Source of the DNA: Escherichia coli
GTDB lineage: Bacteria; Pseudomonadota; Gammaproteobacteria; Enterobacterales; Enterobacteriaceae
Direction: 5' to 3' (one strand)
Assembly (NCBI RefSeq): GCF_051903065.1
Contig: NZ_CP178439.1
DNA: 64,000 bases
Within the stretch, counting starts at the first letter, position 1. Each line of letters begins with the position of its first letter. The notes under the pieces were generated by a model. That model had not been told where the DNA came from. It ran no database searches and saw only the letters and a list, made by a program, of their open reading frames with translations. The position numbers and the translations under genes were made by a program. Below are positions 6,034-37,649 of this stretch, in pieces.

Positions 6034-7401
6034 GTGGAGCTAATCATGGACATTAAAAAGGCCTGGGAAAATAAGACCGTCAGACTTTCTGTTATTGGCG
6101 CTCTGCTGGTAGTGATTGTTTATATTATTAGCCAGTCTATTTTTTCCACACCAGTTAAGAAAGAAAAGAAAACACAGAAAAAAGACATGCAGACCAATTT
6201 GTTGTTAGATGATTCGCAAATGAACAAATTGAGTAATGAAGAAAGCCAGAAAGTATATAAGGAAATGGTTAAGCAAAACCGACTTGATCAAAATGCGGCG
6301 AAAGAGGACCGCGAAAAAGCAGAAAAAGCCCAACAGGAAACTAAAGCCCAAGTTGCAAGTTTAACTTCTCAACTTCAGCAGCTGTCTCAGCAAATTAATG
6401 ATATGCAGACTAATCGAAACGGCAATCGTAACTTGGATGCTGGTAGTTCGCGTAAAACGATTAATGAGCAGGCACCGGCAGCTCCTTATCAGCTTAATGC
6501 TAATGCGCCGATTAATGGCGTAAACCCTAATTACGCGTCTATCACACCTACGCGTAATAGCCCGATGAGAACAATCACACAAAGTTCCATTAAGACTAAT
6601 GGTACCGATGGTGTCATTCAGGTTATGCCCGTGTCTGAAAACAGAATCAAGGAAGGCAGAGAGGTCATTGCAGGAGATAAAGCGCCTACTCGGACTGTAC
6701 GAGGTGATGGTACTGCGCCAGTTGATAGCAAAGCGCGGCATGCTGCCCGAAAAGATGAAATGTTTCTTCCGGCAACATCTATTATCACTGGTGTTCTGAT
6801 TACCGGGCTTGAAGCGCCTACAAGCCTTTCTTCCAAATCAGAACCAATGCCAGTAACAATGCGTATTAAAAAAGATGTCATCATGCCCAATAATTTCACC
6901 ATGGATTTGCGTGACTGTAACCTTCTGGGTTCAGCTGTTGGTGATTTGGCGTCACAGCGTGCTTACATACGTGCCACTTCTATCTCTTGTGTTAATTCAA
7001 AAGGGAAAGCTTTTGACGTAAAACTGGAAGCATATGCTGTAAGTGAAAATGACGGAAAAAATGGGATCCGAGGCACGCTTATCAGCCGAAATGGTAACGC
7101 AATTGCAGGAGCTGCATTTGCCGGTGGACTTTCTTCACTTGCCGGTAGCTTAAGCCCCAGTAAGGTATCTTCACTTAACATCGACCCTAATTCACAGGCT
7201 CAGTATCAGTCCCCTAATTTTGGTGCACTTGGGGCATTAGCCGGGGCTGGTGCAGCTCAAGGTGGCCTTAATCGACTCGTCGATTACTACACCGCAATTG
7301 CAGAACAACAGTGGCCAATCGTAGAAATTAGCCCTGGCCGAGCTATTACATTTGTCGTTCAGACCGGAACTACAATTCCAACGAATCTGACCAGTCGCTG
7401 A
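6034..7401 (+). CDS. trhB: TraB-like (VirB10-like) mating-pair-formation protein
   Basis: 455 aa; N-terminal membrane anchor, coiled-coil Q-rich segment and Gly/Ala-rich C-terminal domain; operon position. Confidence 0.6.
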   Translation: MELIMDIKKAWENKTVRLSVIGALLVVIVYIISQSIFSTPVKKEKKTQKKDMQTNLLLDDSQMNKLSNEESQKVYKEMVKQNRLDQNAAKEDREKAEKAQQETKAQVASLTSQLQQLSQQINDMQTNRNGNRNLDAGSSRKTINEQAPAAPYQLNANAPINGVNPNYASITPTRNSPMRTITQSSIKTNGTDGVIQVMPVSENRIKEGREVIAGDKAPTRTVRGDGTAPVDSKARHAARKDEMFLPATSIITGVLITGLEAPTSLSSKSEPMPVTMRIKKDVIMPNNFTMDLRDCNLLGSAVGDLASQRAYIRATSISCVNSKGKAFDVKLEAYAVSENDGKNGIRGTLISRNGNAIAGAAFAGGLSSLAGSLSPSKVSSLNIDPNSQAQYQSPNFGALGALAGAGAAQGGLNRLVDYYTAIAEQQWPIVEISPGRAITFVVQTGTTIPTNLTSR

Positions 7402-7408
7402 GGTTTAA

Positions 7409-7891
7409 ATGGATAGTTTAGAAAAAAAAGAATCGACTGAATCAGCTGGACCTGAAATCACTAAAAAAATGGTGCGAGAAAGGACAACAAAAAAAATTAC
7501 CTTCGAAATTGATATTGAAAAAATATTGAAGTATTTATTTTTCTTCGCCTTTGCCGTTTTGGTCATTATTTATGGTTATAAAGGCTTTATGAATGTTTAC
7601 GATTACTTCAATAAACAATCACAGCCTTCGTACAAGATTGCAGTGCTTGACATGCCTGAATTACGTAAGGAATTTTTCAAGCATCACGAAGGCCGTACTG
7701 CTGACAATGATAGAACTCAATTCGAAGAATATTTCAGAACATTAATGAAGATCTACCGTGACCGTGGCTATTTAATTATTGATGCAACGCTTGCCGTTAC
7801 TGTACCGGATAGTGTTGAAATCGTCACTTATATGGAACTTGAAGATAGCTCTGAAGCGGTACAATCAAGTTCTTATAATGCAAAGAAGTAG
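7409..7891 (+). CDS. Hypothetical membrane protein inside the transfer operon
   Basis: 160-aa ORF with a transmembrane helix (LKYLFFFAFAVLVIIYGY), tightly spaced after trhB. Confidence 0.5.
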   Translation: MDSLEKKESTESAGPEITKKMVRERTTKKITFEIDIEKILKYLFFFAFAVLVIIYGYKGFMNVYDYFNKQSQPSYKIAVLDMPELRKEFFKHHEGRTADNDRTQFEEYFRTLMKIYRDRGYLIIDATLAVTVPDSVEIVTYMELEDSSEAVQSSSYNAKK

Positions 7892-7904
7892 AGGGCACCC
7901 AATA

Positions 7905-8762
7905 GTGAAAAAGTTACTTTTCCCTTTAATGGCGGCTTTCGCCATTATGGCGAATACGGTCACTTATGCTTCAGAGCAGGTCCTAACTAATAGTGATGCT
8001 GCTGCGTTAATGGCAAAGGCAAAGGAAGGCGGCGTTTCACCCAGTCAGATCTCGGGTGCGTTATCAAAAATGAAAGGATATAAACCTAAGGATGCCATAT
8101 ACATTCCTTCTGGTGGGCTATACCTCTTTCAGGACGAGCGTTCGCAGCTAATGGCAGTAACGACCGATGGCCGATACTCCCTTACTGGGGGAAGCCTTGT
8201 TGATGTAATTAAACGTAAACCTGTTCTGACTGTAGAAGAAATCAGAAATTCCTATTTTATTAGTCTTGATGAGGCCCCCTTCCCTCTGGAAACTGTAGCG
8301 TCCATTCATCTGGGAAATTCAAAGCTTAAGAGACAAGCAGCCATTTTCTTAACACTTGATTGTGACGGTTGCATGGAACTTGTTAAGAAATTTTATGCAG
8401 ATCGGGACAAGTATCGGATAGATATTGTTTTAGTTCCCTCACCCGGTGAGCCAAAAGAAGAGCTTAGAAGGCTCTGGTGTAGTAAAGAAAAAGGAAAAAT
8501 AAACAACCTCGATATTCTTCGTTGGCTAATGGGAAGCAAATCCGACATTGAAAAAAGATTGCTCTCTCAAAAAGAAGCAGAAGAATGTCCGGCGGAACCT
8601 TTGGTAGCGTCATTGATGCTCGCAGGAATTTATAAATTGCAGGGTGTACCTTCAGTTGTCAGACAGGATGGTTTGGCTGGTAATGGCATTCCAAAAGATT
8701 TCGACTACTGGTTGAACCAAAGCGTTGAACCTCTCTTAAAAAATCCATTTGAGACAAATTAA
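7905..8762 (+). CDS. Periplasmic thioredoxin-fold protein with CxxC (CDGC) motif, DsbC/TrbB-like
   Basis: GTG start after RBS GAGGG; signal peptide KKLLFPLMAAFAIMANTVTYA; CDGC motif; F-type systems carry DsbC-like TrbB proteins. Confidence 0.5.
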   Translation: MKKLLFPLMAAFAIMANTVTYASEQVLTNSDAAALMAKAKEGGVSPSQISGALSKMKGYKPKDAIYIPSGGLYLFQDERSQLMAVTTDGRYSLTGGSLVDVIKRKPVLTVEEIRNSYFISLDEAPFPLETVASIHLGNSKLKRQAAIFLTLDCDGCMELVKKFYADRDKYRIDIVLVPSPGEPKEELRRLWCSKEKGKINNLDILRWLMGSKSDIEKRLLSQKEAEECPAEPLVASLMLAGIYKLQGVPSVVRQDGLAGNGIPKDFDYWLNQSVEPLLKNPFETN

Positions 8763-8771
8763 GGCTAGTTT

Positions 8772-9722
8772 ATGAACATCAAAAGATTGGTACTCAGTGC
8801 TCTGGTTGTAGGTACATCCTCATATCTTACGGGGTGCTCCATCGGGAGTTCCGAATCCGAATGTCCAGGCATTGAAAAGGGCGTTATCTGTAAAGGTCCT
8901 CGCGAAGTTATGGAGTTAACTAATAATCGAGATGATCTGTCTGCACTTGCGGGGGAAGAGTCGGAATCGGGAAAGGAGAAATCGGCTGTCAATGACAGCC
9001 GTTATCCAACTGAAATTAGCCCTCCAGGGGAAGTCAAATATCCACAGTCTACAACCCTTAAAAATCAGCCTGTGGCTTATTCAAAAACCGAAATTAAGCC
9101 AGTTGGTCAGTTACCTGTCATGTACGATAAAACTTTAAAAATGGGTGCCCCTACTTCATCCATTGGACCACGGCCTATTTCTGGTGTACCGGTTAATTCA
9201 AACGTAAGGATGACTAGCAGTTATAGCACTGCCTCTTCAGCTGGTAACCCTTTCGTTCATCCGGCTGCGGAAGTCGTTAAACAAACAAGCTATCCGGTTT
9301 CTGCTGGAAATGCACCACGCTACGTTGCACCTAATTCTGATATCAGCCCTGGCAAGGATATGTACTCTCTTTACAATGGCCAGCCCGTTAACCCTACTCT
9401 CAACACTGGGCAGATCCAGCAATACCGTTCGCAAGGTTATAAACAAGCTGTAGTGGCTCCTGAACCACTTGCTGTTCTGCAACAGGGGAAAGTAATGAGA
9501 ATTACTTTTGCACCTTATACCGATGATAACGATGCGCTTAATCTTCCCGGCTACGTTTATGTCAACGTAAAACCGCAAACATGGATTGCTGGCAAGAATT
9601 CGACCTCAAACCCAGCTCGCATAGTTCCTTTAGAAGTACAGGATGCGGCCCGGGAAAATATGCAGCAGCAACAAAAAGCAACTAAAGCTGTCTCTTCGAA
9701 CGGCATTGTTAGACAACTGTAA
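8772..9722 (+). CDS. trhV: TraV-like outer-membrane lipoprotein
   Basis: Lipobox LTGC followed by a Cys-containing stretch; 316 aa; sits just before the traC-like gene. Confidence 0.55.
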   Translation: MNIKRLVLSALVVGTSSYLTGCSIGSSESECPGIEKGVICKGPREVMELTNNRDDLSALAGEESESGKEKSAVNDSRYPTEISPPGEVKYPQSTTLKNQPVAYSKTEIKPVGQLPVMYDKTLKMGAPTSSIGPRPISGVPVNSNVRMTSSYSTASSAGNPFVHPAAEVVKQTSYPVSAGNAPRYVAPNSDISPGKDMYSLYNGQPVNPTLNTGQIQQYRSQGYKQAVVAPEPLAVLQQGKVMRITFAPYTDDNDALNLPGYVYVNVKPQTWIAGKNSTSNPARIVPLEVQDAARENMQQQQKATKAVSSNGIVRQL

Positions 9723-9730
9723 GGTCAAAT

Positions 9731-12412
9731 ATGGAAGCTATCAATAATTACAATAGCGGTTTAAATCGCCATCAATTAGGTGGGTTTATCCCTGTTTACG
9801 ATCAATTAGCAGGGACTCACTATTTTTTGATTGATGGCAACAGATTAGGGTTTATGTTTATCTGTAATCCATCACCTGGAGTTTTTGATAATCAGCAAGA
9901 TGTTCTTGCTGAAATGTTCAAAATGGATTTTCCTACAGATACTGTCTGTCAAATATCTCTGACTGCATTGCCAGACTTGACTTTACAGCTTAGTGCTTGG
10001 TCAGCTGTGCGAGGTGGGCGTATGACTGGGAACGATAAGCTTAAAGCAGATCTGCTTAATGGTTATCAGTTGGACTACTACGACAGAAGTATGCATAAGC
10101 CTTTAAAACCTGATCATGATAACCTTATGTTGAGGGATTTTCAGGTATGGATCTCGCTATCGATTCCTTTACAGTCTGCCCTTCCTACCGAGCTGGAACA
10201 TTCGCGTATCGATTCACTTTACTCTGAACTTGTAAGTAAGTTAATTACGATTGGACTGCATCCGTTTAAGGTCGATGCAGAAAACTGGCTCTATTGTATA
10301 GATAAGGTCGTAAACCCCGGAAAGAACTCTCGGTGGGCTGAAGGTTTTATAGACGTTAACACTATGAAAAGGCTTAATGAACAAGTTAACGTTCCCGGCC
10401 GAAAGTATACAGTCACAGAAAATCATTTCTCATCAGTCACACAAAGTGACGACGAATCTGAGCATCGTTACTTCAAACAACTTTCCGTTGTAAAGTTTCC
10501 TGAATACGTCAATTTCGGTTGTATGTATGAGTTAGTAGTTAACTGGATGCATGGACGTAAGACAATTTTCAGCCCATTTATGATCACTCAGACTGTTCAG
10601 TTTGCCGATCCGCTCAAGTTGTCAAAAGAAAACGTCCGCTACAAAGCAATCACTAATAAACAGGCAAGTATACCTTCAGTTGTCACATTCTGCCCTCGCC
10701 TGCGGGATATGGATAATGACTACATGGCCGTAACTCGCGAGCTTGAGGATGGCGCAAAGCTTTTAAGAGGGTATCTTACTTTCACTGTTATGGGTAGTAA
10801 TGCCAATTCTGTGCAGACAGCAGCTAACGATCTCAAATCCTTTTACCTCGAAAGCCGGGTCAAAGTAGCAGATGATTCCTTTATCGTTTTCCCGTCATTT
10901 ATGTCATGTCTGCCAATGTGCAATGACCCAAAGACAATTTTCGACCTTGACCGTTCCGAAGTAGTGAGCAACACCGGAGCGGCTCATATGACGCCGATCT
11001 TTGGGCCCTGGAAAGGTAATACAGATAGACCAGTACTGAGTTTAGTTTCTCGTGAAGGTCAACTCATGGGACTTGATATTTTCAAGACTTCTGCAAGCTA
11101 TAACATGGTTATTGGTGCAACGTCAGGTGCAGGCAAGTCATTCTGGACAGCATATCTAATCAATAACTATCTTGGAGCTGGACCGCGATCTAATAACCTC
11201 GTTCATTATCGCTCAACATTTAAGCATTTTTTAGAAAACGAATACCCAGATGATGATCCTGATGGTGCTCAAGTTTTTGTAGTGGACGTGGGGCGTTCTT
11301 ACCAGGGGATTGCGGAACAATATACAAACAGTCAATTTATTGATTTCGGTAAAACCCCTGACTTCACCCTAAATCCCTTTGCCTTCCTAACTGACATCAC
11401 TGTTAACGACGATGTATTTAACGAAGCACCTGAATTTACCGGTGAATCAACTTCAAACGATGCAGAAAAAGACAAAGTTGCTCAGACCATAATGGTTCTG
11501 AATCAGCTAAAAATTATGGCTTCAGAGAAAGGCCTTATCGATGATTATCAACAATCAGTGATGCTTCAGCTTATTGCAGAAGAGTACCAGGAATCCAGAA
11601 AATCAGGTCGGACCGGTTCAATAACCGGCTTTGCTCTGCGTTGCAAGAAGCATGAAGACAAACGTATAAAGGATATTGGGGAGCAACTCGGAGCATGGTG
11701 CGAAGGTGGAATTTATGGGCACCGGTTTACCGATACGTTGCCTCCAATCAACTTCGACAGCAGATTTATTGTTTTGGAACTGGAGGAGCTAAAAGGCACC
11801 CCCCACCTTCAGACAGTTGTTTTAATGTCTATCATTCAGGCTGCTCAGCATGCAATGTTCATCAAAAAAGATGGGCGTCGTCGCTTGTTCATCCTAGATG
11901 AAGCTTGGGAGTACATTCGTCCTGATAATTCATCAGGTGCCGGAAATCAATCAAACCAATTCTTCTCTTCCTTCCTCGAAGCGGCATGGCGTAGGTTCAG
12001 GAAAACAAACTGCGCTGGCATCTGTATCACACAGTCGTTTGAAGATTATTTTACTTCTTCTGTTGGCCGGGCCCTGACTGCTAACTCGCCTTGGAAGATA
12101 ATCATGAAACAAGAAAAAGAAAGCATTGAAGCAATGAAGGCTAATAAATATTTTTCTACTTCAGATGCAGAATATGAACGAATGAAAAATATTCGTACAG
12201 TCAAAAAGGTGTTTTCAGAGATGTTAGTCAGGTTCGAAAACTTCCAAGAGATCTGTCGGTTATACGTAGACCGGAAAATGGAGCTTTGTTTTACTACGGA
12301 TAGTGCTGACAGGAGTAAATTATGGGAAATTCAAAGCCGCGAGAATTGTAGCTATGGCGAGGCAATAGAAATTCTCTATGCTCAAGAAGTAGCAGCGGGT
12401 TTGGCCGCGTAG
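9731..12412 (+). CDS. trhC: TraC-like (VirB4 family) conjugative ATPase
   Basis: 893 aa; Walker A GATSGAGKS; Walker B-like LFILDEAWE; size and position typical of F-type TraC. Confidence 0.85.
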   Translation: MEAINNYNSGLNRHQLGGFIPVYDQLAGTHYFLIDGNRLGFMFICNPSPGVFDNQQDVLAEMFKMDFPTDTVCQISLTALPDLTLQLSAWSAVRGGRMTGNDKLKADLLNGYQLDYYDRSMHKPLKPDHDNLMLRDFQVWISLSIPLQSALPTELEHSRIDSLYSELVSKLITIGLHPFKVDAENWLYCIDKVVNPGKNSRWAEGFIDVNTMKRLNEQVNVPGRKYTVTENHFSSVTQSDDESEHRYFKQLSVVKFPEYVNFGCMYELVVNWMHGRKTIFSPFMITQTVQFADPLKLSKENVRYKAITNKQASIPSVVTFCPRLRDMDNDYMAVTRELEDGAKLLRGYLTFTVMGSNANSVQTAANDLKSFYLESRVKVADDSFIVFPSFMSCLPMCNDPKTIFDLDRSEVVSNTGAAHMTPIFGPWKGNTDRPVLSLVSREGQLMGLDIFKTSASYNMVIGATSGAGKSFWTAYLINNYLGAGPRSNNLVHYRSTFKHFLENEYPDDDPDGAQVFVVDVGRSYQGIAEQYTNSQFIDFGKTPDFTLNPFAFLTDITVNDDVFNEAPEFTGESTSNDAEKDKVAQTIMVLNQLKIMASEKGLIDDYQQSVMLQLIAEEYQESRKSGRTGSITGFALRCKKHEDKRIKDIGEQLGAWCEGGIYGHRFTDTLPPINFDSRFIVLELEELKGTPHLQTVVLMSIIQAAQHAMFIKKDGRRRLFILDEAWEYIRPDNSSGAGNQSNQFFSSFLEAAWRRFRKTNCAGICITQSFEDYFTSSVGRALTANSPWKIIMKQEKESIEAMKANKYFSTSDAEYERMKNIRTVKKVFSEMLVRFENFQEICRLYVDRKMELCFTTDSADRSKLWEIQSRENCSYGEAIEILYAQEVAAGLAA

Positions 12413-12829: not shown

Positions 12830-15800
12830 CTTTTAACTTATTTAACCCCCTTTATCGCCAATCTGTGATTTTCTAATGTTAGCCTACAGTTCTAGGGCCC
12901 TTGCTCCCATGATGCGAATCCTTCCACCTAATAAAGATTAACGCCTCATTCCTGTATGCCGGTCTTACGACGCCAGTGCTCGGGCTATTTTCGGTCCTAA
13001 CAAGACCTGGCGAGAGATTTAATCAGGGCGTGGTGTGACTGAGCAGCAGCTGGGGCACTGTTATCCGCTTGCAGATTTAACCCCCTTAATCGCCAAACTG
13101 GGGTACTGTCCTGATGCTGGCCTTCAGTTCTGGGCTGGGTGGCTATCACTTCCTCCCATAATGCGAAATGTAACTGCTGATACAGATTAACGTCATATTC
13201 CTGCGTGCCGGTCTGCCAACACCAGTGCACGGGCTTTTTTCGGTCATCACATTACCGGGCAGGAGATTTTATCAGGGCGTGGTGTGACTGAGCAGAAGCT
13301 GGGGCACTGTCAGCAGCTTGCAGATTTAACCCCCTTAATCGCCACACTGGGATTCTGGTCTGATATTGACCTTCCGTTCTGGGCGGGGTTCGGTTTGCTA
13401 ACACTTACTCCCATGATACGAAATGTGCCTGCTGATACAGATTAAAATCACATTACTGCATACCGGTCTGCCGACACCGGTGCATGGGCGATTTCCGACG
13501 ATCTCAAGAACATATGGGAGATTATATCAGGGAGAGTAGTATGCCTGAGCAGCATCTGAAGGCACTGTCAGCCGCTGTCAGATTTAACCCCCTTAATCGC
13601 CAAACTGGTGTTCTGTCCTCATGCAGGCCTTCAGTTCTGAGCTGGGTTGCTATCACTTGCTCCCATAATGCGAAATGTACCTGCTGATACAAATTAACGT
13701 CGTATTCCTGTATGCCGGTCTGCCGACACCAGTGCTCGGGCTATTTTCGGTCCTAACAAGACCTGGCGAGAGATTTAATCAGGGCGTGGTGTGACTGAGC
13801 AGCAGCTGGGGCACTGTTATCCGCTTGCAGATTTAACCCCCTTAATCGCCAAACTGGGGTACTGTCCTGATGCTGGCCTTCAGTTCTGGGCTGGGTGGCT
13901 ATCACTTCCTCCCATAATGCGAAATGTAACTGCTGATACAGATTAACGTCATATTCCTGCGTGCCGGTCTGCCAACACCAGTGCACGGGCTTTTTTCGGT
14001 CATCACATTACCGGGCAGGAGATTTTATCAGGGCGTGGTGTGACTGAGCAGAAGCTGGGGCACTGTCAGCAGCTTGCAGATTTAACCCCCTTAATCGCCA
14101 CACTGGGATTCTGGTCTGATATTGACCTTCCGTTCTGGGCGGGGTTCGGTTTGCTAACACTTACTCCCATGATACGAAATGTGCCTGCTGATACAGATTA
14201 AAATCACATTACTGCATACCGGTCTGCCGACACCGGTGCATGGGCGATTTCCGACGATCTCAAGAACATATGGGAGATTATATCAGGGAGAGTAGTATGC
14301 CTGAGCAGCATCTGAAGGCACTGTCAGCCGCTGTCAGATTTAACCCCCTTAATCGCCAAACTGGTGTTCTGTCCTCATGCAGGCCTTCAGTTCTGAGCTG
14401 GGTTGCTATCACTTGCTCCCATAATGCGAAATGTACCTGCTGATACAAATTAACGTCGTATTCCTGTATGCCGGTCTGCCGACACCAGTGCTCGGGCTAT
14501 TTTCGGTCCTAACAAGACCTGGCGAGAGATTTAATCAGGGCGTGGTGTGACTGAGCAGCAGCTGGGGCACTGTTATCCGCTTGCAGATTTAACCCCCTTA
14601 ATCGCCACACTGGGGTTCAGTCCTGATAGTGTCCTTCCGTCCTGGGCTCGGTTGCTAACACTTGCTCCCATTGCGCCTGCTGATACAGATTAAAGTCACA
14701 TTACTGCATACCGATCTGCCGACTCCGGTGCATGGCTTTTTCCGATAATCACAAGGACGGACGGGTGATTTTATCTTTGCATAGTATGTCTGAGCAGCAT
14801 CAGAAGGCTCTGTCAGCCACTGGCAGATTTAACCCCCTTAATCTCCAAACTGGGATCAGTCCTGATAGTGTCCTTCCGTCCTGGGCAGGGTTGCTAACAC
14901 TTGCTCCCATGATACGAAATGCGCCAGCTGATACAGATTAACGTCTCATTACTCCATGCCGGTCTGCCGAAACTGGTGCATAGCTTTTTTCGATATTCGC
15001 ATGAACAGACGCTTGATTTTTTCAGGTTGTAATATACCTGAGCAGCATCTGAAGGCACTTTCAGTCTCTGTCAGATTTAACCCCCTTAATCGCCAATCTG
15101 GGATTTTCTGATGTTAACCTACAGTTCAAGGCCCTTGCTCCCATGATGCGAACCTTGCAACCTGATAAAGATTTAAGCCTCATTCCTGTATGCCGGTCTT
15201 ACGACTCTAGTGCACGGGGACTATTTTCGGTCATAATAAGACCTGGCGGGAGATTTAATCAGGCGTGGTGTGACTGAGCAGAAGCTGGGGCACTGTCAGC
15301 CGCTGGCAGATTAAAACCCTTTATTCGCCATCTCAAGACGTCATTATGGGTAGTCCTTTTAACTTTCTAAGGACCATTAAGCTTAAACTCCGTTTAGAGA
15401 ATGACGTAAGATTTAGGCTAAGCAGGTTAAGTGATCCCCGCTCCCGGGTTGAACACTTTATTCATCGTACGAGCGAAAGATTGTCCTTCGGGAAATATTT
15501 CTTATACACCGCTCGGGCACTTACAGCCACTGGCGGATTTAACCCCCTTAATCGCCAAACTGGGGTACTGTCCTGATGCTGGCCTTCAGTTCTGGGCTGG
15601 GTGGCTATCACTTGCTCCCCTAATGCGAAATGTGTCTGTTGATACAGATTAACGTCATTTTCCTGCGTGCCGGTCTGCCGACACCAGTGCACGGCCTTTT
15701 TTCGGTCATTACATTACCGGGCAGGAGATTTTATCAGGGCGTGGTGTTACTGAGCAGGAGCTGGGGCACTATCAGCAGCTTGCATATTTAACTCCCTTAA

Positions 15801-16410
15801 TCGCCAAACTGGTGTTCTGTCCTCATGCTGGCCTTCAGTTCTGGGCTGGGTTGCTATCTCTTGCTCCCATAATGCGAAATGTATCTGCTGATACAGATTA
15901 ACGTCATATTCCTGTATGCCGGTCTGCCGACACCAGTGCTTGGGCTATTTTCGGTCATAACAAGACCTGGCGAGAGATTTACTCAGGGCGTGGTGTGACT
16001 GAGCAGCAGCTGGGGCACTGTCATCCGCTTGCAAATTTAACCCCCTTAATCGCCAAACTTGGGTTTTGTCCTGATGCTGGCCTTCCGTTCTGGGCGGGGT
16101 TGCTATCACTTGCTCCCATCATGCGAAAAGTGCCTGCTGATACAGATTAACGTCATATTCCTTCATGCCGGTCTGCCGACACAAATGCACGGGCTTTTTT
16201 CGGTCCTTACAATACCGGGCAGGAGATTTAATCAGGGCGTGGTGTGACTGAGCAGCAGCTAGGACACTGTCAGCCGCTGGCAGATTTAACCCCCTTAATC
16301 GCCACACTGGGGTTGCCTCCTGAAGTTGGGTTTCAGTTCTGGGCTAGGTTGCTAACTCTGCTCCCATAATTCGTAGTGGGCCTACTCAAGAGATTAACAC
16401 CTCATATCTT
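12830..16410. repeat. Tandem array of about 15 units of about 249 bp, including a near-identical 756-bp (three-unit) duplication
   Basis: Anchor CAGATTTAACCCCCTTAATCGCCA recurs at about 12836, 13072, 13321, 13579, 13828, 14077, 14335, 14584, 14824, 15072, 15306, 15534, 15782, 16032 and 16281; track ORF pairs 12997..13230 / 13753..13986 and 13484..13687 / 14240..14443 are identical. Confidence 0.9.
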
Positions 16411-16777: not shown

Positions 16778-18031
16778 ATGAATTTACTTGAAAAGATCGC
16801 CCTCGTTGGTCAGCGCATGAAAAGCGAGCAGATTTCTCTTAAGGAATCTCTGATGGCTTCATCAAGAGTATCTGTTTCTGATGATAGTGTTGATGGTGTT
16901 GATAGACTGATCTACAACCACTGTTTAAATAAAAAAAATCTCTCTGATTTTTTTGGGAAGTCACGAGTAACGTTCAATAAAATACTTTCGGACTTAGAAG
17001 AAAAAGAACTTGTTGGTGCACCTATTTATCAAAACAAAAATCATCTTTACACCCGCTGGGATGTTCAAAAAATAATGGATGCCCTGGGTTATCCCAAGTA
17101 CCGCGATCATTACTTTAGCAGAGCTATTGTTACTCAGAATCATAAAGGCGGTACAGGGAAAAGCACTACATCTGTAGCTTTAGCAGTAGCAGCTGCTTTA
17201 GATCTACAACTGAATGCACGTGTATTAATGATCGAATGGGACCCACAAGGTTCGATTGGAAGCAGCATGATTCAAAGTGTCTCAGAAGATGATGTCTTCC
17301 TTACAGCAATTGATGCAATCCTTGGAATTTATGAAGAAAATTCTGAGTATAAAAAATATTTAGATTCAGGATTCTCTGAAGAAGAAATCATCACTAATAT
17401 GCCTTTTTCAACGCATCTGCCAAACTTGGACGTGATAACGGCATTTCCGACAGATGCTCGTTTTAAAGATAAATACTGGCAATGTTCTAGAGAAGAACGA
17501 ACGTCTTTGTTACTACGTTTCAAGGAAGTTATCTTACCGGTACTGAAGCAGAACTATGATTTGATTATTATAGACACTCCACCTGAAGATTCACCTTTGA
17601 TCTGGGCTGCTGACGAAGCGGCCGATGGGATTCTTGTCGCAGTGTCACCACGTGAATATGATTACGCCTCTACTACAGACTTCATGCTTACAATAAGTGA
17701 AAGGTTTAAACAATCACCAAGTAAGGGCGATAATTTAAAATGGTTCAAAGTTCTTGCTGTCAATGTTGATGACAAAAGTCCATATGAAAGAATAGTTTTG
17801 GATAAATTAATCAGAACTGTTCAGGACCTTTTGATGTCCGCTAACATAAAAAATTCTGAAGCATTTAAGGCAGCTGCTTCCAAAGGGCGTACAGTGCTTG
17901 ATATCAAAAAATCAGAGGAACTTTGTTCCGCAAAGCAACTTGATGTCGCAGAAGAATCTGTATTACAGGTATATCAACAATTTATAAATGAAATAAAAAG
18001 TTTTTCAGCTAAGCAAGGAGTTAACGCATGA
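16778..18031 (+). CDS. parA: Partition ATPase ParA (type Ia, Walker type with N-terminal extension)
   Basis: 417 aa; deviant Walker A KGGTGKSTT; long N-terminal region typical of SopA/P1 ParA-type proteins. Confidence 0.85.
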   Translation: MNLLEKIALVGQRMKSEQISLKESLMASSRVSVSDDSVDGVDRLIYNHCLNKKNLSDFFGKSRVTFNKILSDLEEKELVGAPIYQNKNHLYTRWDVQKIMDALGYPKYRDHYFSRAIVTQNHKGGTGKSTTSVALAVAAALDLQLNARVLMIEWDPQGSIGSSMIQSVSEDDVFLTAIDAILGIYEENSEYKKYLDSGFSEEEIITNMPFSTHLPNLDVITAFPTDARFKDKYWQCSREERTSLLLRFKEVILPVLKQNYDLIIIDTPPEDSPLIWAADEAADGILVAVSPREYDYASTTDFMLTISERFKQSPSKGDNLKWFKVLAVNVDDKSPYERIVLDKLIRTVQDLLMSANIKNSEAFKAAASKGRTVLDIKKSEELCSAKQLDVAEESVLQVYQQFINEIKSFSAKQGVNA

Positions 18032-19032: not shown

Positions 19033-19037
19033 ATATT

Positions 19038-19062
19038 GAACTGCATCTTTATGATGCAGTTC
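19038..19062. terminator. Hairpin between the convergent parB and the minus-strand operon
   Basis: GAACTGCATCtttatGATGCAGTTC inverted repeat. Confidence 0.35.
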
Positions 19063-19093
19063 ATATGATTTATATTTTTAATTTCTTGTTATA

Positions 19094-19483
19094 TTAATAT
19101 GGGGTGTGCGCAGGTTCAGACATATAAGGTCTTAGTTCTATATGAACAGAAGCGCCATTCCCATCATTTACTACGTTTAAAGGTGCTTTGCCCGGCAATG
19201 ACATAGTTGCAACGTCAGGTCCAGAAACAGCAAAATTATTTTCTGCTGAAGGCATTACTGTAAAAATCTTTATAGCAACATTTTCATGTCTAAATAAAGA
19301 AATCCCAAAAGTAGAACCAGCTTCGGTATTGCTCACGTCCACAACCACAGGGGTTTTTCCTAGATATTCATTAGTTAGTATGTTTTTTACTAATGCCCCT
19401 TCCGGGACAGTATAGATACGGTATGGATATGCTAAAACTGAGTGACAAAAACATAATAAAATAACAATTAATGTTTTTTTCAT
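19094..19483 (-). CDS. Small exported protein, unknown function
   Basis: 129 aa with signal peptide MKKTLIVILLCFCHSVLA; last gene of a four-gene minus-strand operon. Confidence 0.55.
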   Translation of the reverse strand: MKKTLIVILLCFCHSVLAYPYRIYTVPEGALVKNILTNEYLGKTPVVVDVSNTEAGSTFGISLFRHENVAIKIFTVMPSAENNFAVSGPDVATMSLPGKAPLNVVNDGNGASVHIELRPYMSEPAHTPY

Positions 19484-20001
19484 AGATTATCCTCATTCAA
19501 AAATAAAAGATATAACTCTTGAAAATCGTGGTTATTAATTAGGTCCGCTTTTCCGGGAAAATCGTAACTAACAGAAAATAAAAGAGAAAGAGAATCTTTT
19601 CCTTTTGCTTTGGGAGAGATTCTGCTAAAAGCACGGTTAATAAACATAAGTTGATCTTCATTGTTGAAGCAAAGTCCAAGCATTCCAACCGTAGGAACTA
19701 CGAATGTGCTTACGCTGCCTGGGGGCAAAAGTTGCTTACTACGGGCATTGTAAGCACAACGACTACCACCTAGCGTTAGGCCTGAAAGCTCAATAAAACT
19801 TCTGGTTCCATTCTTGGCGACAAGCCAAACATCAGTTCCTGAACTTTCGACACGTAAAGTAACTTTTCCGTCAGTAAAGGCCTCACTTTTATTGTATAGA
19901 ATAGGGTCAAAACCAACTGTCGGGAGTTCTTCGATTTTACTTTCTACTGACTGACAACCAGTCAGTAATGCAAACAATAAAAGTGTGATAACTTTAATCA
20001 T
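19480..20001 (-). CDS. Lipoprotein, unknown function
   Basis: 173 aa; lipobox LTGC; 4-bp overlaps with both neighbours. Confidence 0.6.
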   Translation of the reverse strand: MIKVITLLLFALLTGCQSVESKIEELPTVGFDPILYNKSEAFTDGKVTLRVESSGTDVWLVAKNGTRSFIELSGLTLGGSRCAYNARSKQLLPPGSVSTFVVPTVGMLGLCFNNEDQLMFINRAFSRISPKAKGKDSLSLLFSVSYDFPGKADLINNHDFQELYLLFLNEDNL

Positions 20002-20830
20002 CCCGCTTCCTTAGATTGTTTTTGGCGCTGGTTATAAAAGATAATGATTCACCGGGGTAGAGAATTGTTTCTTTCGTCCAATAACCATAACCACCGAGGA
20101 TATCTTTTCTTTTCTCAATATAAACCGGTTCAGAAAATTCTAAATGTTGATATTTCGGAAGAGATAAGATTTTATATTTTACTTGTCCAACTAAGAGGTA
20201 ATTCTTCTCTTTAGGATTGATGGTTACTGAATTACCAACACTTTGAGGTATGTTAAGTTTTTTTATATTTAGATCAGAATCGTCAGGAACGGACACTTGA
20301 TCATTAGATGTCTTTCCGGGAAGAGTAAACCCTTTATCCTGATCCGGTCCAAAGATGGCAATTACATCTTTGTTGTTTCTTGTGATCGAAACGATAGCCT
20401 GAAGGGGCGTATTAGCAAGGTCATTTATAAACGATATAGTTATACTTGATTTAGGCTCGACCCAAACAATGCTTTTTCCGGATGTGCCTTCGCTTAATGC
20501 AATTTTTTCATTTAGTAAGATTTTATTTTTGGCAATGATATTATACTCAAGTTTCGGTATCACCATAAAAAGTGATTCTTTATTTGAAACATTCATGATT
20601 TCTAAGAAATTGGTTTTGGTCATGCTGGTCTTTAGAACAGGCCTATATTTACCATTTATAAACCACCTTCCGTTTATAAGCTCCGCTTTAGCAGATATAA
20701 GTGAATCACTTTTCTGAGCGGCAGAAGAAAAAGCATCTTTTCTTTGCTCTTTCTCTTGATGTGGTGCAGCTGCTGCGTGAAGATGCAAAAGTAATGTTGA
20801 AATTGAGATAATCTTCCATTTTATCTTCAT
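19994..20830 (-). CDS. Exported protein, unknown function
   Basis: 278 aa with an N-terminal signal peptide; coupled to neighbours. Confidence 0.55.
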   Translation of the reverse strand: MKIKWKIISISTLLLHLHAAAAPHQEKEQRKDAFSSAAQKSDSLISAKAELINGRWFINGKYRPVLKTSMTKTNFLEIMNVSNKESLFMVIPKLEYNIIAKNKILLNEKIALSEGTSGKSIVWVEPKSSITISFINDLANTPLQAIVSITRNNKDVIAIFGPDQDKGFTLPGKTSNDQVSVPDDSDLNIKKLNIPQSVGNSVTINPKEKNYLLVGQVKYKILSLPKYQHLEFSEPVYIEKRKDILGGYGYWTKETILYPGESLSFITSAKNNLRKRDD

Positions 20831-21774
20831 CTTGTTACCTCAATGTTGTTTTCAATCGAATCGAGTTCTAAAGGATAGGTTTTAAGTGAATAAAACTTGT
20901 TTGTTGTTTGTATTAGCTGATGACACAATAAAACTGGATTGTTCTTCATGATTATTTCTACTAATGTAAGTGCTGGTGAGTCAGTTGGCGGTATACCCGG
21001 AGCAACTATTACCTGGTCTTCTAATTTTGACATATAGAGTGATCCAGTATTTATATGTAAACAATTACCGATCAGTACTGGAAGATTGTTTTGAGTACGA
21101 CCATGGGCTTTTCGAATGCTGTTTACAGGATTCCTACCTAGGACCATAAGGTTGACGTCATTTATCATCATTGGTATTACGGCATGGTCCATACCGAATA
21201 GAAACTGGCTCTGAAAAATATTCACATTGGCATAGTTGAATGCTTGAAGCGCATTATAAGTATCAGTGAATGATGTGCGGATAGGGGCGTAATCAGAAGG
21301 GCAAACCCCAATTTTTATATCGCCTTTGAGTAAAATCTGCATCATCGTACCAAGCTGGGTATTAAGAAGTTTTTTTACCTCTTCCTCTAAATAGTAACGA
21401 TTTACAGCTTTATGCCACTTTCCGCCCATTACACACCATCTCTCATTGAGGTATGTGCTGGGGTAAAATGTTCTCCGGTCTTTGTTTAATGGTAACAATT
21501 TTTTTAACATTTCTTCTCCGGCTCCGGCAGCTGAGAAATGCCTCACAAAACGTCCATCGAAAAAGCCACTGTTTATCGCCTTCATCAACTCTATGGGTTC
21601 CGGCCCATAGTCAAACAAATTTCCAGTAGAGAAAATTACTATCTCTTCTTCTGGCTTTGTAACTGATTGAATCAAGTTGCACAGCGCAGAGTAATGTCCA
21701 TGAGGATCTGCCAGAAAGAAAATCCTTCCCGAGAAGTTTGTAAGGTCTATAGTTTGGACGTGCTCAGCTGCCAT
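20827..21774 (-). CDS. Calcineurin-like metallophosphoesterase
   Basis: 315 aa; LADPHGHY (D-x-H) and GNLFDYG (GD-x-x-D-x-G-like) metal-binding motifs; first gene of the minus-strand operon. Confidence 0.65.
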   Translation of the reverse strand: MAAEHVQTIDLTNFSGRIFFLADPHGHYSALCNLIQSVTKPEEEIVIFSTGNLFDYGPEPIELMKAINSGFFDGRFVRHFSAAGAGEEMLKKLLPLNKDRRTFYPSTYLNERWCVMGGKWHKAVNRYYLEEEVKKLLNTQLGTMMQILLKGDIKIGVCPSDYAPIRTSFTDTYNALQAFNYANVNIFQSQFLFGMDHAVIPMMINDVNLMVLGRNPVNSIRKAHGRTQNNLPVLIGNCLHINTGSLYMSKLEDQVIVAPGIPPTDSPALTLVEIIMKNNPVLLCHQLIQTTNKFYSLKTYPLELDSIENNIEVTR

Positions 21775-22795
21775 AAATTCCTCTACGTATGTTTACATCG
21801 ATGATACGGTATTTCGAGCTATGATTTTTTTACATAAAGGCGTCATTTTGGATTCTAAGCCTAAGGACCTTTGTTACTTACTGGTAAAGGCTCCAGTCCT
21901 GGCTCTCAAACAGTTCATACTTAGGATGCAAAGTAACTTTCTGATTATAATTGGCTCCTTTATAAACATGTTTACTTCATGAATACAGGATATTTAACGG
22001 TAATGTATTTAAAATGGAAGGATGCTGAAATAACATAGAGTTACGTATTTTTTTAATAGTGTTGATGTTGATAATAGGTCACCATTAATGTATAAAGTTA
22101 ATATCTAATATGGTCCTATTAATAAAAGAGAGTTTTTATGGCTGAACTATTAAAATCTGAAAGTCCTGTTTCACAATCATTGCAGGATATCACTGAAGCT
22201 TTAAAAATCGTTGTCGATGATGGAAGTAAAGCTGCAAAACTGGTTTGTCTTAATGAAAGAAACGAATTAGTTCCCTTGCTCACACAAAATAGTTTTGTTC
22301 CAGATTTCCGTGTTCGCCATGAGGGTCTCAATCCTTTTAACTATCTTATTGATGGGCTGGAAAGGTTTTCGCATCACAGCGAATCTAGTAACTCACTGGA
22401 ATCGACTGATGTATCTCACCAATACGATGAAATTAGCCGGTTAAATGTTCACCATGCACTTCATGCTTCTGGTTTAGTTCCTCAGGATGTTCACCTCTTT
22501 GTTACTTTACCTCTTAGCCAGTTCTATACTGCTTTAGGGGAAACGAATATTGAAAATATTCAGAGAAAAAAAGATAACCTGATGAAACCAGTTGAGCGTT
22601 ATCTTGACGGTAAACGCTATTCTTTCAACGTTTTGTCTGTGACTGTTTTCCCTGAATCTTTACCAGCTGTGACCCGGGCAGATGAAATTGAGGATATTGC
22701 TTCATTTGAATCAAGTTTGGTAATTGATCTTGGTGGTACTACTCTTGATGTTGCAAGTATTACTGGGCAATTAGAACAGATTTCGAAAGTAAAAG

Positions 22796-23992
<1,197 letters not shown>

Positions 23993-24198
23993 TAAGAATT
24001 ATCTTAATAAATCTGGTACTTAATTATTATTTTACTTATAAAGTCTCTGTGCTTTAATGGTTATGTAAGGATTTTTTGATACCCTTATACCCGATGGACC
24101 TAAGGTCACTGACAACGATGTTCATGTAGAATCTTCGTTTCTGTAATCCCTTTTGTCCTTGTCCCAAATGTTTGATTATTATAATAAAGGCTGATCGA

Positions 24199-24651
24199 AT
24201 GCTATCTCGCAACTCACTAATACATGGTTTACGCCGAGACCAGTTAATCGGAGTTCTGACTATTTCAGAGTTTCCGGTAGTTATGGTAGAAAGCCACTTC
24301 ATTCAGTCTGAGGTTATGGGAATAAAACCCGTAATTTTTAATATTGATGAGCTTCTTGTTTCTATATCCCCAATTTCCTCTCTTAAGTTCGATTGGGAGT
24401 GGGCCCCAGTTGATACAATACTCATTGAAGTTATCATTCCACCTGTAGAGTCAGACCTTGTAAGTGCAGAAAATGACTTCCTCCGTGATTCTGGTATCGG
24501 CCATATCCAGTGCGAGCCTGGCGGAGCATCAATACGACGTACAGTTACCTTCGTTGGTGGAATAACCGCTGATAACTTACTGTATCAGTTGAGGCTTATG
24601 TGCGTAAGTGCGTTAAAACTTTTAGGAGAGGAACTGGGGGATGAAGTCTAA
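24199..24651 (+). CDS. Hypothetical protein
   Basis: ORF of about 150 aa after IS5 (track start 24172); start choice uncertain. Confidence 0.4.
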   Translation: MLSRNSLIHGLRRDQLIGVLTISEFPVVMVESHFIQSEVMGIKPVIFNIDELLVSISPISSLKFDWEWAPVDTILIEVIIPPVESDLVSAENDFLRDSGIGHIQCEPGGASIRRTVTFVGGITADNLLYQLRLMCVSALKLLGEELGDEV

Positions 24652-36776: not shown

Positions 36777-37649
36777 TTACTTGGCTTTCAATGTTTTTTC
36801 TGGGAAGCCTTTTTTACCGTATTCACCGGTAAAGAGGTAATAATCTTTTCCGTTGATGGAGGCTGCAACACCCCCTGGAGTTGTTGTATTTGGGCTATCA
36901 GAACGGAAAATGATACCCGAAAAATCAGCGCTTGTTTCGTTTCCTTTAAATGGGATGAACACATAACGAATTACAGCGTAATCACCAGCGGGAAGGTTTA
37001 GCTGAGGAATTTCGGTTCCTGTTGCGGGGCGAATCGCCTGAAAGCTGTACATTGAATCTGTAGGGAAAACATCAGCATCAGGCTTAGAGGGCAGATCACA
37101 GGTACTCCATTTATTGACGACTGCCATATCAATTTTACATGTGGCCAGAGCTGCTTTCTGTTTTTCAGGGTTGTATCCAAATGAGGCCTGAGTTGCTTTT
37201 GTATGCTCAAAAACATACTTAGCTCCTTCACGTACCAAACTTTCATCATTGTAAGGCAATTTTTTTGGATTGGGGACGAACACTAGGTATTGATTGACCT
37301 GGATGTATTCGGCGTCAGAAGAACTGTACAAAGAGCCGAGGCTCATGATCCCAAAACCTTTTAGACCGCCTGTTACGTAGCCCATCGAACTATTGATGAG
37401 ATACTTAGAAAGAAAGTTGTCGGCATCCCCTCCAGGAGTAACCTCTTGCTCCTTAAAATTAACGTCGAAACCAGCAAACGAATAGGCATTCTTGGCGACA
37501 GAATCATTTGCTTTAGCATGCCAGTACTGGCCGTGACTGTACGCATTCAGAGCGGTGCCTGGCGTAGTGCCGGTGTCACCGGCACAACCCGATAGGGAAA
37601 AACCAATGACGACAGAAGAGACCAGAGATACTAAACGTAAAAGTTTCAT
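36777..37649 (-). CDS. Lipoprotein, unknown function
   Basis: 290 aa; lipobox LSGC after a signal peptide. Confidence 0.65.
   Translation of the reverse strand: MKLLRLVSLVSSVVIGFSLSGCAGDTGTTPGTALNAYSHGQYWHAKANDSVAKNAYSFAGFDVNFKEQEVTPGGDADNFLSKYLINSSMGYVTGGLKGFGIMSLGSLYSSSDAEYIQVNQYLVFVPNPKKLPYNDESLVREGAKYVFEHTKATQASFGYNPEKQKAALATCKIDMAVVNKWSTCDLPSKPDADVFPTDSMYSFQAIRPATGTEIPQLNLPAGDYAVIRYVFIPFKGNETSADFSGIIFRSDSPNTTTPGGVAASINGKDYYLFTGEYGKKGFPEKTLKAK

What the first reader, a model, noticed from the sequence alone, without database searches (positions are those of the whole stretch)
19094..21774. Operon of a metallophosphoesterase and three exported proteins, divergent from the parM remnant
Four minus-strand genes with 4-bp overlaps (translational coupling): a cytoplasmic calcineurin-like phosphoesterase followed by a signal-peptide protein, a lipoprotein and a small secreted protein. 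I do not recognise this combination as a named system. The layout suggests an envelope-targeted function, possibly exclusion, signalling or defence.
Basis: partly seen in the sequence, partly recalled or inferred. Interest (0 to 1): 0.55.

Follow-up and report, generated by a model that had tools for sequence, protein, structure and literature searches.

The report
IncHI plasmid "Z operon": trhO-eexB-orf17-trhZ
The four genes are real, but they are an already named accessory operon of the IncHI plasmid conjugation region (trhO, orf16/eexB, orf17, trhZ), which in the model plasmid R27 boosts transfer and blocks redundant entry of related plasmids, so the finding is ordinary.

Summary
Four overlapping minus-strand genes lie at 19094-21774: a cytoplasmic metallophosphoesterase-like protein, a signal-peptide protein, a lipoprotein and a small exported protein. 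The overlaps are 4, 8 and 4 bp, not all 4.

The window is an IncHI2 plasmid backbone (Tra2 transfer region). The block is the IncHI2 copy of R27 genes R0015-R0018, called the "Z operon": trhO, eexB (orf16), a lipoprotein (orf17) and trhZ. Protein identity to R27 is 72/44/62/78%. UniRef already names the exact window proteins TrhO and TrhZ.

Published R27 work says trhO and trhZ raise transfer frequency. It describes the operon as encoding the entry-exclusion system, activated by TrhR/TrhY and repressed by HtdA.

About 1,976-1,979 PLSDB plasmids carry trhO, orf17 and trhZ. In distant Klebsiella IncHI-like plasmids the block sits beside the transfer genes with no partition genes nearby.

New details, all computational:
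- TrhO has lost most λ-phosphatase metal ligands and is probably a pseudo-enzyme.
- Orf16 models as two copper-free cupredoxin-like domains and is the fastest-diverging gene.
- TrhZ models as a PEGA/transthyretin-like β-sandwich.

There is no defence-system match. Novelty: already known. Interest is low.

The parts
20827..21774 (-). trhO: cytoplasmic λ-phosphatase-like metallophosphoesterase-fold protein (315 aa) with a degenerate active site; orthologue of R27 R0015
   Evidence: ORF. Pfam PF00149 E 6e-5. PHROG NinI-like phosphatase E 1.4e-7. hhalign to λ phosphatase gives probability 97.8% over 217 columns, with most ligand positions substituted. 72% identical to R27 R0015. UniRef name 'IncH1 plasmid conjugative transfer protein TrhO'.
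19994..20830 (-). orf16 / eexB orthologue: exported 278-aa protein, modelled as two copper-free cupredoxin-like domains; the fastest-diverging gene of the block
19480..20001 (-). orf17: 173-aa lipoprotein (lipobox LTGC, Gln at +2) with two further invariant cysteines; orthologue of R27 R0017
   Evidence: ORF. Lipobox and Cys positions. C16, C82 and C111 are invariant in 7 homologues. 62% identical to R27 R0017, which is listed as 'lipoprotein (Z)'.
19094..19483 (-). trhZ: small exported protein (129 aa), PEGA/transthyretin-like β-sandwich; orthologue of R27 R0018
19037..19063 (.). Bidirectional terminator-like hairpin (11-bp stem) between the stops of parB and trhZ; probable 3' end of the operon
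   Evidence: Terminator scan reports it on both strands. Sequence read.
21775..22137 (.). 363-bp AT-rich divergent intergenic region between trhO and parM; presumed Z-operon promoter
   Evidence: Sequence. No σ70 consensus match in this interval. That fits an activator-dependent promoter: in R27 the Z operon needs TrhR/TrhY. This is an inference for this plasmid.

Best explanation
This is the IncHI2 copy of the IncHI 'Z operon' of transfer region Tra2: trhO-orf16(eexB)-orf17-trhZ. It is an accessory conjugation operon, not a stand-alone system.

The following is shown in R27 and carried over here by orthology. The operon is transcribed as one unit, activated by TrhR/TrhY and repressed by HtdA. 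TrhO and TrhZ are needed for normal transfer frequency. The exported middle protein(s) mediate exclusion of incoming IncH plasmids, with EexB located in the outer membrane. Exclusion requires the Eex proteins in both donor and recipient, which points to like-with-like recognition between the two cell envelopes.

The following is my inference from sequence and models.
- TrhO is a λ-phosphatase-fold protein that has lost most metal ligands. It probably acts as a non-catalytic cytoplasmic scaffold or regulator.
- Orf16/EexB is a copper-free, two-domain, cupredoxin-like periplasmic or outer-membrane-associated protein. Its rapid divergence suggests it sets exclusion specificity.
- Orf17 is an outer-membrane lipoprotein that may anchor Orf16. 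It may be EexA.
- TrhZ is a small PEGA/transthyretin-like periplasmic adaptor.
For: Replicon and context: 100% identity to IncHI2A/MOBH/MPF_F plasmids, in the order TraC, ParA, ParB, four genes, ParM, htdA, RSP. The same order is found in R27.

Orthology to R27 R0015-R0018 is 72/44/62/78%.

Literature. The Gibert 2020 supplement lists R0015 trhO, R0016 eexB exclusion protein, R0017 lipoprotein and R0018 trhZ, all marked '(Z)'. They are derepressed 8-17-fold in an htdA mutant at 25 °C. [quoted passage not shown] A review citing Lawley 2003 says trhO and trhZ increase transfer frequency. Another paper says EexB is in the outer membrane and that EexA/EexB are needed in donor and recipient. An FDA transfer-gene table lists trhO, orf16, orf17 and trhZ for IncHI2. 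UniRef names are given.

Co-occurrence. tblastn finds TrhO in 1,979 PLSDB plasmids, Orf17 in 1,976 and TrhZ in 1,976, with near-identical genus counts. Synteny holds at 45% and at 31% TrhO identity.

Divergence. Orf16 is always the fastest-diverging gene.

TrhO ligand loss. Folds.
Against: - No experiment on the IncHI2 genes was available to me. All function is transferred from R27 at 44-78% identity.
- I could not read the primary papers (Lawley 2003, Gunton 2008). The phenotypes come from secondary citations, and the locus of eexA is unresolved.
- The structure models are of moderate confidence (pLDDT 73 and 76, built from alignments of 8-11 sequences).
- The pseudo-enzyme inference rests on a profile alignment, not on coordinates or an assay. 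N52 and D23 could still bind one metal.
- Gene-wide dN/dS for orf16 is below 1, so positive selection is not demonstrated.
Confidence: 0.9

Rival explanations
1. TrhO is an active Ser/Thr or phosphodiester phosphatase. The operon would then be a phospho-signalling module that switches the transfer apparatus or envelope proteins on and off. This matches the database labels 'phosphodiesterase' and 'metallophosphoesterase'.
For: Homology to the λ phosphatase / PrpA-PrpB / ApaH clade. The motif I Asp (D23) and D55 are invariant, and H121, H197, H224 and H240 are invariant elsewhere in the protein. They could form an atypical site. The distant L006 homologue keeps a GFHE motif III.
Against: In the profile alignment to λ phosphatase, the family has D49→N52 (invariant), R53→Y56, N75→A85, H76→G86, H139→P159 (P/S/A in the family) and H186→R214 (invariant). 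The motif I His (H25) is Y or C in half the family. That removes four of six metal ligands and the catalytic His.
Confidence: 0.15
2. The block is an envelope-targeted anti-phage defence or signalling system carried as plasmid cargo and unrelated to conjugation.
For: Exported proteins plus an enzyme-like cytoplasmic partner. Three of the four proteins have no significant Pfam or NCBIfam family.
Against: No PADLOC hit for any of the four. The block is found only in IncHI-type MOBH/MPF_F plasmids, always inside Tra2 next to traC/trhC and htdA-RSP. It is co-regulated with tra genes in R27. Transfer and exclusion phenotypes are published.
Confidence: 0.03
3. The four genes are accessory components of plasmid partitioning, because they sit between the ParA/ParB and ParM/ParR modules.
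For: Their position between the two par modules in IncHI1 and IncHI2. They share a divergent intergenic region with parM.
Against: In Klebsiella IncHI-like plasmids and in L006/L009 the same four-gene operon lies between htdA/F/K-RSP and traC with no par genes. In this window parM is IS-disrupted and parR is missing, yet the four proteins match exactly sequences found on ≥1,000 contigs. In R27 the par genes do not respond to htdA as the Z genes do.
Confidence: 0.02

Closest known systems
R27 (IncHI1) Z operon of Tra2: trhO (R0015), eexB (R0016), R0017 lipoprotein, trhZ (R0018)
   Same: Same four genes in the same order, with overlapping stop/start codons. Same neighbours: parM divergent, parB convergent, htdA-htdF-htdK-RSP beyond. 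Protein lengths are 315-323/278-279/173/129-130 aa, and identity is 72/44/62/78%.
   Different: This is the IncHI2 lineage. Orf16/EexB is only 44% identical, so the exclusion specificity may differ. Here parM is truncated by ISKpn26 and parR is missing. No IncHI2-specific experiments were found.
F-plasmid TraT (surface exclusion lipoprotein) and TraS (entry exclusion)
   Same: Envelope-located exclusion factors encoded inside a transfer region and non-essential for pilus synthesis. EexB, like TraT, is reported in the outer membrane.
   Different: No sequence match to TraT or TraS families in NCBIfam or Pfam. The IncHI factors are reported to be needed in both donor and recipient, whereas TraT/TraS act in the recipient. 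Orf16 is not a lipoprotein and models as a cupredoxin-like tandem.
Bacteriophage λ Ser/Thr phosphatase (NinI, PDB 1g5b) and E. coli PrpA/PrpB
   Same: TrhO shares the fold-level sequence signature: hhalign probability 97.8% over 217 columns, with motif I/II context GD(x)HG...GDLxDRG ~ aDpHG...GNLFDYG.
   Different: Four of six metal ligands and the catalytic His are substituted. TrhO is about 95 residues longer (315 vs 221 aa), partly through an unaligned C-terminal tail of about 36 residues. Its scores are far below the NCBIfam equivalog cut-offs.
SufI/FtsP and other copper-less members of the multicopper-oxidase (cupredoxin) fold
   Different: Only 9-14% identity. Two domains rather than three. 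The model is of moderate confidence. No functional link to cell division is known.

Membership tests
IncHI Tra2 Z operon (trhO-orf16/eexB-orf17-trhZ) | Located in the Tra2 region of an IncHI (MOBH, MPF_F) plasmid, between the trhC/par genes and the htdA-RSP operon | tested here: met
   100% matches to IncHI2A plasmids, with flanking TraC, ParA/B, ParM, htdA and RSP.
IncHI Tra2 Z operon (trhO-orf16/eexB-orf17-trhZ) | Four co-directional, overlapping genes, each orthologous to R27 R0015-R0018 | tested here: met
   Same order and sizes. 72/44/62/78% identity with E ≤ 1e-68. UniRef names TrhO and TrhZ for the exact sequences.
IncHI Tra2 Z operon (trhO-orf16/eexB-orf17-trhZ) | The four genes are inherited as a unit across the IncHI group | tested here: met
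   1,979/1,976/1,976 PLSDB records for TrhO/Orf17/TrhZ, with matching genus counts. Synteny in L004, L005, L006, L009 and L011. Record-by-record overlap was not checked.
IncHI Tra2 Z operon (trhO-orf16/eexB-orf17-trhZ) | Transcription activated by TrhR/TrhY and repressed by HtdA | not testable with these tools
   Known for R27 only. htdA is present in the window at 24172-24651.
IncHI Tra2 Z operon (trhO-orf16/eexB-orf17-trhZ) | Phenotypes: reduced transfer in trhO/trhZ mutants; exclusion conferred by the Eex protein(s) | not testable with these tools
   Secondary citations for R27 only. Primary papers are not held.
Active calcineurin-like metallophosphoesterases (PF00149; λ-phosphatase/PrpA-B clade) | Sequence or profile homology to the family | tested here: met
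   PF00149 E 6e-5. hhalign to λ phosphatase: probability 97.8%, E 3.8e-12.
Active calcineurin-like metallophosphoesterases (PF00149; λ-phosphatase/PrpA-B clade) | Conserved dinuclear-metal ligands and catalytic His (λPP D20, H22, D49, N75, H76, H139, H186) | tested here: not met
   Only D23 is invariant. H25 is variable. The substitutions are D49→N52, N75→A85, H76→G86, H139→P159 and H186→R214.
TraT-type surface-exclusion lipoproteins / TraS-type entry-exclusion proteins | Sequence membership in the TraT or TraS families | tested here: not met
   No NCBIfam or Pfam hit to these families for Orf16, Orf17 or TrhZ.
Known anti-phage defence systems (PADLOC-DB) | Any component matching a defence-system model | tested here: not met
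   Zero hits at E ≤ 1 for all four proteins.
Multicopper oxidases / cupredoxins | Cupredoxin β-sandwich fold (two tandem domains) | tested here: met
Multicopper oxidases / cupredoxins | His/Cys/Met copper ligands | tested here: not met
   No Cys in the protein, and only two His (24, 229) after the signal peptide. No His or Cys is invariant in the family alignment.
PEGA domain (PF08308) | Significant profile match | tested here: inconclusive

The most novel reading that the evidence does not exclude
The Z operon may encode a self-recognising envelope complex built from unusual parts. These would be a copper-free two-domain cupredoxin-like protein (Orf16/EexB), tethered by an outer-membrane lipoprotein (Orf17, possibly EexA) and a PEGA-like adaptor (TrhZ), coupled to a cytoplasmic pseudo-phosphatase (TrhO) that has kept the λ-phosphatase fold without its chemistry. 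Rapid divergence of Orf16 (78-87% identity between IncHI2 variants whose neighbouring proteins are 91-100% identical, orf17 89-98%) would define distinct exclusion groups within IncHI2. That would govern which mcr- and ESBL-carrying IncHI2 plasmids can superinfect each other.
Probability: 0.3. Interest if true: 0.4.

Novelty: already known. Interest (0 to 1): 0.15.

Why it matters
IncHI2 plasmids are major carriers of resistance genes in Salmonella, E. coli and Enterobacter. Their exclusion and transfer-efficiency genes shape which plasmids can spread or co-reside. The operon itself is already named and partly characterised in R27, so finding it here adds no new system.

The open part is the molecular mechanism. 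It is not known how a degenerate phosphatase-fold protein and three small envelope proteins raise transfer and exclude relatives. It is also not known whether Orf16 variants define exclusion groups. The computed details here give testable hypotheses: TrhO ligand loss, a cupredoxin-like Orf16, and Orf16 as the fastest-evolving gene.

Tried and rejected
- Defence system: PADLOC gave no hits, so this was rejected.
- Housekeeping phosphatase: the NCBIfam PrpA/PrpB matches are far below cut-off (23.6 and 14 bits against 332 and 326), so this was rejected.
- Partition accessory genes: rejected, because distant IncHI-like plasmids keep the operon without par modules.
- Primary papers: Gunton 2008, Lawley 2003 and Humbert 2019 are not held.
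- Submitter annotation: AF250878 and AM412236 are not in the collections.
- Literature searches: 'trhO' alone and 'R0016/R0017' returned irrelevant papers. As a result, the locus of eexA could not be fixed. The candidates I considered are orf17/R0017 and, purely as a conjecture from my own recollection, the R0004-like lipoprotein next to trhN.
- Sequence-only search of the PDB with TrhO, or with its family profile, aligned only motifs I-II. hhalign against λ phosphatase was needed for motifs III-V.
- Pfam on Orf16 and Orf17 gave nothing significant.
Full report
**1. Observation**

The ORF list shows four minus-strand ORFs at exactly the stated coordinates:
- 20827-21774, 315 aa
- 19994-20830, 278 aa
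- 19480-20001, 173 aa
- 19094-19483, 129 aa

Reading the junctions gives overlaps of ATGA, ATGATTAA and ATGA. That is 4, 8 and 4 bp, not 4 bp throughout. Each start codon is preceded by a GAGG/AAGGA motif.

The first protein matches Pfam Metallophos weakly (E 6e-5) and a PHROG of NinI-like phosphatases (E 1.4e-7). It has no hydrophobic segment. The second has an N-terminal signal-like segment. The third has a canonical lipobox (LTGC, residues 13-16). The fourth has a signal peptide.

A terminator-like hairpin at 19037-19063 sits between the converging stops of parB and the last gene. No terminator-like site was found on the minus strand inside the block.

Upstream, a 363-bp AT-rich spacer separates the block from a divergent parM. 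That parM is cut by an ISKpn26 (IS5-family) element.

**2. What the region is**

The 6.5 kb around the block is 100% identical to many IncHI2 plasmids, such as pAPEC-O1-R and pR18.0877_278k. These are typed IncHI2A, MOBH, MPF_F. The annotated order there is TraC, ParA, ParB, three hypothetical proteins, metallophosphoesterase, ParM, IS5, HtdA, two transfer proteins, RSP. This is the Tra2 transfer region.

The IncHI1 prototype R27 has the same arrangement at 20184-22897. Its proteins are 72%, 44%, 62% and 78% identical to the window proteins.

**3. What is already published**

The supplementary tables of Gibert et al. 2020 (PMC7366339) list R0015 as trhO (phosphodiesterase), R0016 as eexB (exclusion protein), R0017 as a lipoprotein and R0018 as trhZ. 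All are marked as belonging to the 'Z' operon. All are derepressed 8- to 17-fold in an htdA mutant at 25 °C.

[quoted passage not shown] It also states that TrhR and TrhY are required to activate the F, H, AC and Z operons.

A 2024 review citing Lawley et al. 2003 states that trhO and trhZ increase transfer frequency, while htdA lowers it.

A 2024 PLoS Genetics paper, citing Gunton et al. 2008, states that the IncHI1 EexB localises to the outer membrane. It also states that EexA and EexB are needed in both donor and recipient for exclusion.

A preprint lists the Tra2 genes in the order 'parA, eexB, parM'. A transfer-gene catalogue lists trhO, orf16, orf17 and trhZ for IncHI2.

The exact window sequences are named in UniRef as 'IncH1 plasmid conjugative transfer protein TrhO', '...transfer protein' (twice) and '...TrhZ'.

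The combination is therefore a named and partly characterised operon. I could not read the two primary papers, so I could not establish which ORF is eexA. Orf17/R0017 is the obvious candidate, because it is the only other non-trh gene of the operon. That assignment is an inference.

**4. Co-occurrence and distribution**

The families are narrow. At 90% clustering among 5.8 billion proteins there are 14 clusters for TrhO, 10 for Orf16 and 7 for Orf17. Among 1.84 billion representative proteins, TrhZ has 11 hits.

In PLSDB, tblastn finds TrhO in 1,979 records, Orf17 in 1,976 and TrhZ in 1,976. The genus breakdowns are almost identical. I did not check the overlap record by record.

The four-gene order is kept in contigs where TrhO is only 58% or 45% identical.

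It is also kept in Klebsiella IncHI-like plasmids and related contigs, where TrhO is about 31% identical. There the operon (267, 238, 166 and 138 aa) lies directly between htdA/F/K-RSP and traC, with no parM/parR or parA/parB. A still more distant contig keeps Orf16-like, lipoprotein and TrhZ-like genes next to traC.

The block therefore belongs to the transfer region. Its position between two partition modules in IncHI1 and IncHI2 is secondary.

**5. TrhO (computed here)**

A profile of 11 family members aligns to λ phosphatase with 97.8% probability over 217 columns. Mapped onto that alignment and the family alignment:

| λ phosphatase residue | TrhO position | Status in the family |
|---|---|---|
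| D20 | D23 | invariant |
| H22 | H25 | Tyr or Cys in half the family |
| D49 | N52 | invariant Asn |
| R53 | Y56 | Tyr |
| N75 | A85 | Ala |
| H76 | G86 | Gly |
| H139 | P159 | P/S/A |
| H186 | R214 | invariant Arg |

Four of six metal ligands and the catalytic histidine are gone. I therefore infer that TrhO is probably not a conventional dinuclear phosphoesterase. It may be a pseudo-enzyme. This is an inference from alignment, not from a structure or an assay.

**6. Orf16/EexB (computed here)**

An AlphaFold2 model built from 11 sequences has pLDDT 73 and pTM 0.69. Residues 1-42 and 166-182 are disordered. It contains two β-sandwich domains.

The protein has no cysteine, and only two histidines after the signal peptide. 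No His or Cys column is invariant in the family. It is therefore a copper-free scaffold.

**7. TrhZ and Orf17 (computed here)**

Orf17 has three invariant cysteines: the lipobox Cys and two others. It was not modelled.

**8. Divergence**

In every comparison Orf16 is the most diverged protein of the neighbourhood.

| Comparison | Orf16 identity | Other proteins |
|---|---|---|
| IncHI2 variant L012 | 78% | 89-99% |
| IncHI2 variant L014 | 87% | 95-100% |
| R27 | 44% | 62-89% |

The same ranking holds in the more distant loci.

Pairwise dN/dS against the two IncHI2 variants:

| Gene | dN/dS |
|---|---|
| orf16 | 0.27-0.39 |
| orf17 | 0.15-0.29 |
| trhO | 0.08-0.10 |
| trhZ | 0-0.09 |
| parB | 0.05-0.09 |
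| parA | 0-0.02 |

All genes are under purifying selection. The exclusion gene changes its protein three to four times faster at similar dS. That is what a specificity determinant would show, although dN/dS below 1 does not prove positive selection.

**9. Rivals**

- A defence system is not supported: PADLOC gives no hits, and the block has a fixed position inside Tra2.
- A partition role is contradicted by the par-less Klebsiella arrangement.
- An active phosphatase-signalling role for TrhO remains possible but is disfavoured by the ligand losses (confidence about 0.15).

**10. Verdict**

The novelty rating is 'already known' and interest is low. The residual value lies in the mechanistic hypotheses of sections 5-8, none of which I found in the papers I could read.

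Noticed in passing
window 12900-16370: A 249-bp tandem repeat array in two blocks (about 9.8 + 3.5 copies, 76-86% matches). It has about 50% GC against a backbone of about 40%. It fills most of the gap between trhC (9731-12412) and parA (16778-18031), a gap with no ORF of 150 aa or more. The short 'ORFs' listed there are translations of the repeat.
   Followed up: partly
window 22138-24651: parM is truncated to 234 aa by an ISKpn26/IS5-family element (transposase at 22943-23923). parR is absent between the IS and htdA (24172-24651). Related IncHI2 contigs have an intact parM (345 aa) plus parR (211-212 aa). The same IS junction is shared at 100% identity by many plasmids.
   Followed up: partly
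L011 (NZ_CP097690.1) 6980-9364; L006 6033-8417; L009: In Klebsiella IncHI-like plasmids the four-gene operon sits directly between htdA/F/K-RSP and traC, with no partition modules. The ParA/B and ParM/R modules of IncHI1/IncHI2 therefore appear to have been inserted on either side of a pre-existing transfer operon.
   Followed up: partly
L007 581-3112: A more distant variant has a larger Orf16-like protein (333 aa) and a lipoprotein. A YdjM-family gene is inserted on the opposite strand before the TrhZ-like gene, and the locus is again next to traC.
   Followed up: no
window 19994-20830 vs L012, L014: Orf16 alleles of 78-87% identity occur in IncHI2 backbones whose ParA, ParB, TrhO and TrhZ are 91-100% identical. 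This could reflect distinct exclusion types within IncHI2.
   Followed up: partly
window 36777-37649 (- strand): A 290-aa ORF lies just after the 1062-aa trhN-sized ORF. By its position next to that ORF and its identical size it corresponds to the R27 'lipoprotein' R0004 (orf4). In R27 that gene is unnamed and among the most highly expressed plasmid genes in the Gibert 2020 tables. Homology was not checked here.
   Followed up: no
L003 (R27) 20184-21155 vs window 20827-21774: RefSeq starts R27 TrhO eight codons further upstream (323 aa) than the window ORF and most family members (315 aa). The 315-aa start has a GAGGAA Shine-Dalgarno motif in the window.
   Followed up: no
L004 8912-9718; L005 8945-9766; P0126: Some distant Orf16 homologues have a Cys at the end of the signal-peptide hydrophobic region (LAVC, LFSC, LLTC). 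They may be lipoproteins, whereas the IncHI1/IncHI2 proteins are not.
   Followed up: no
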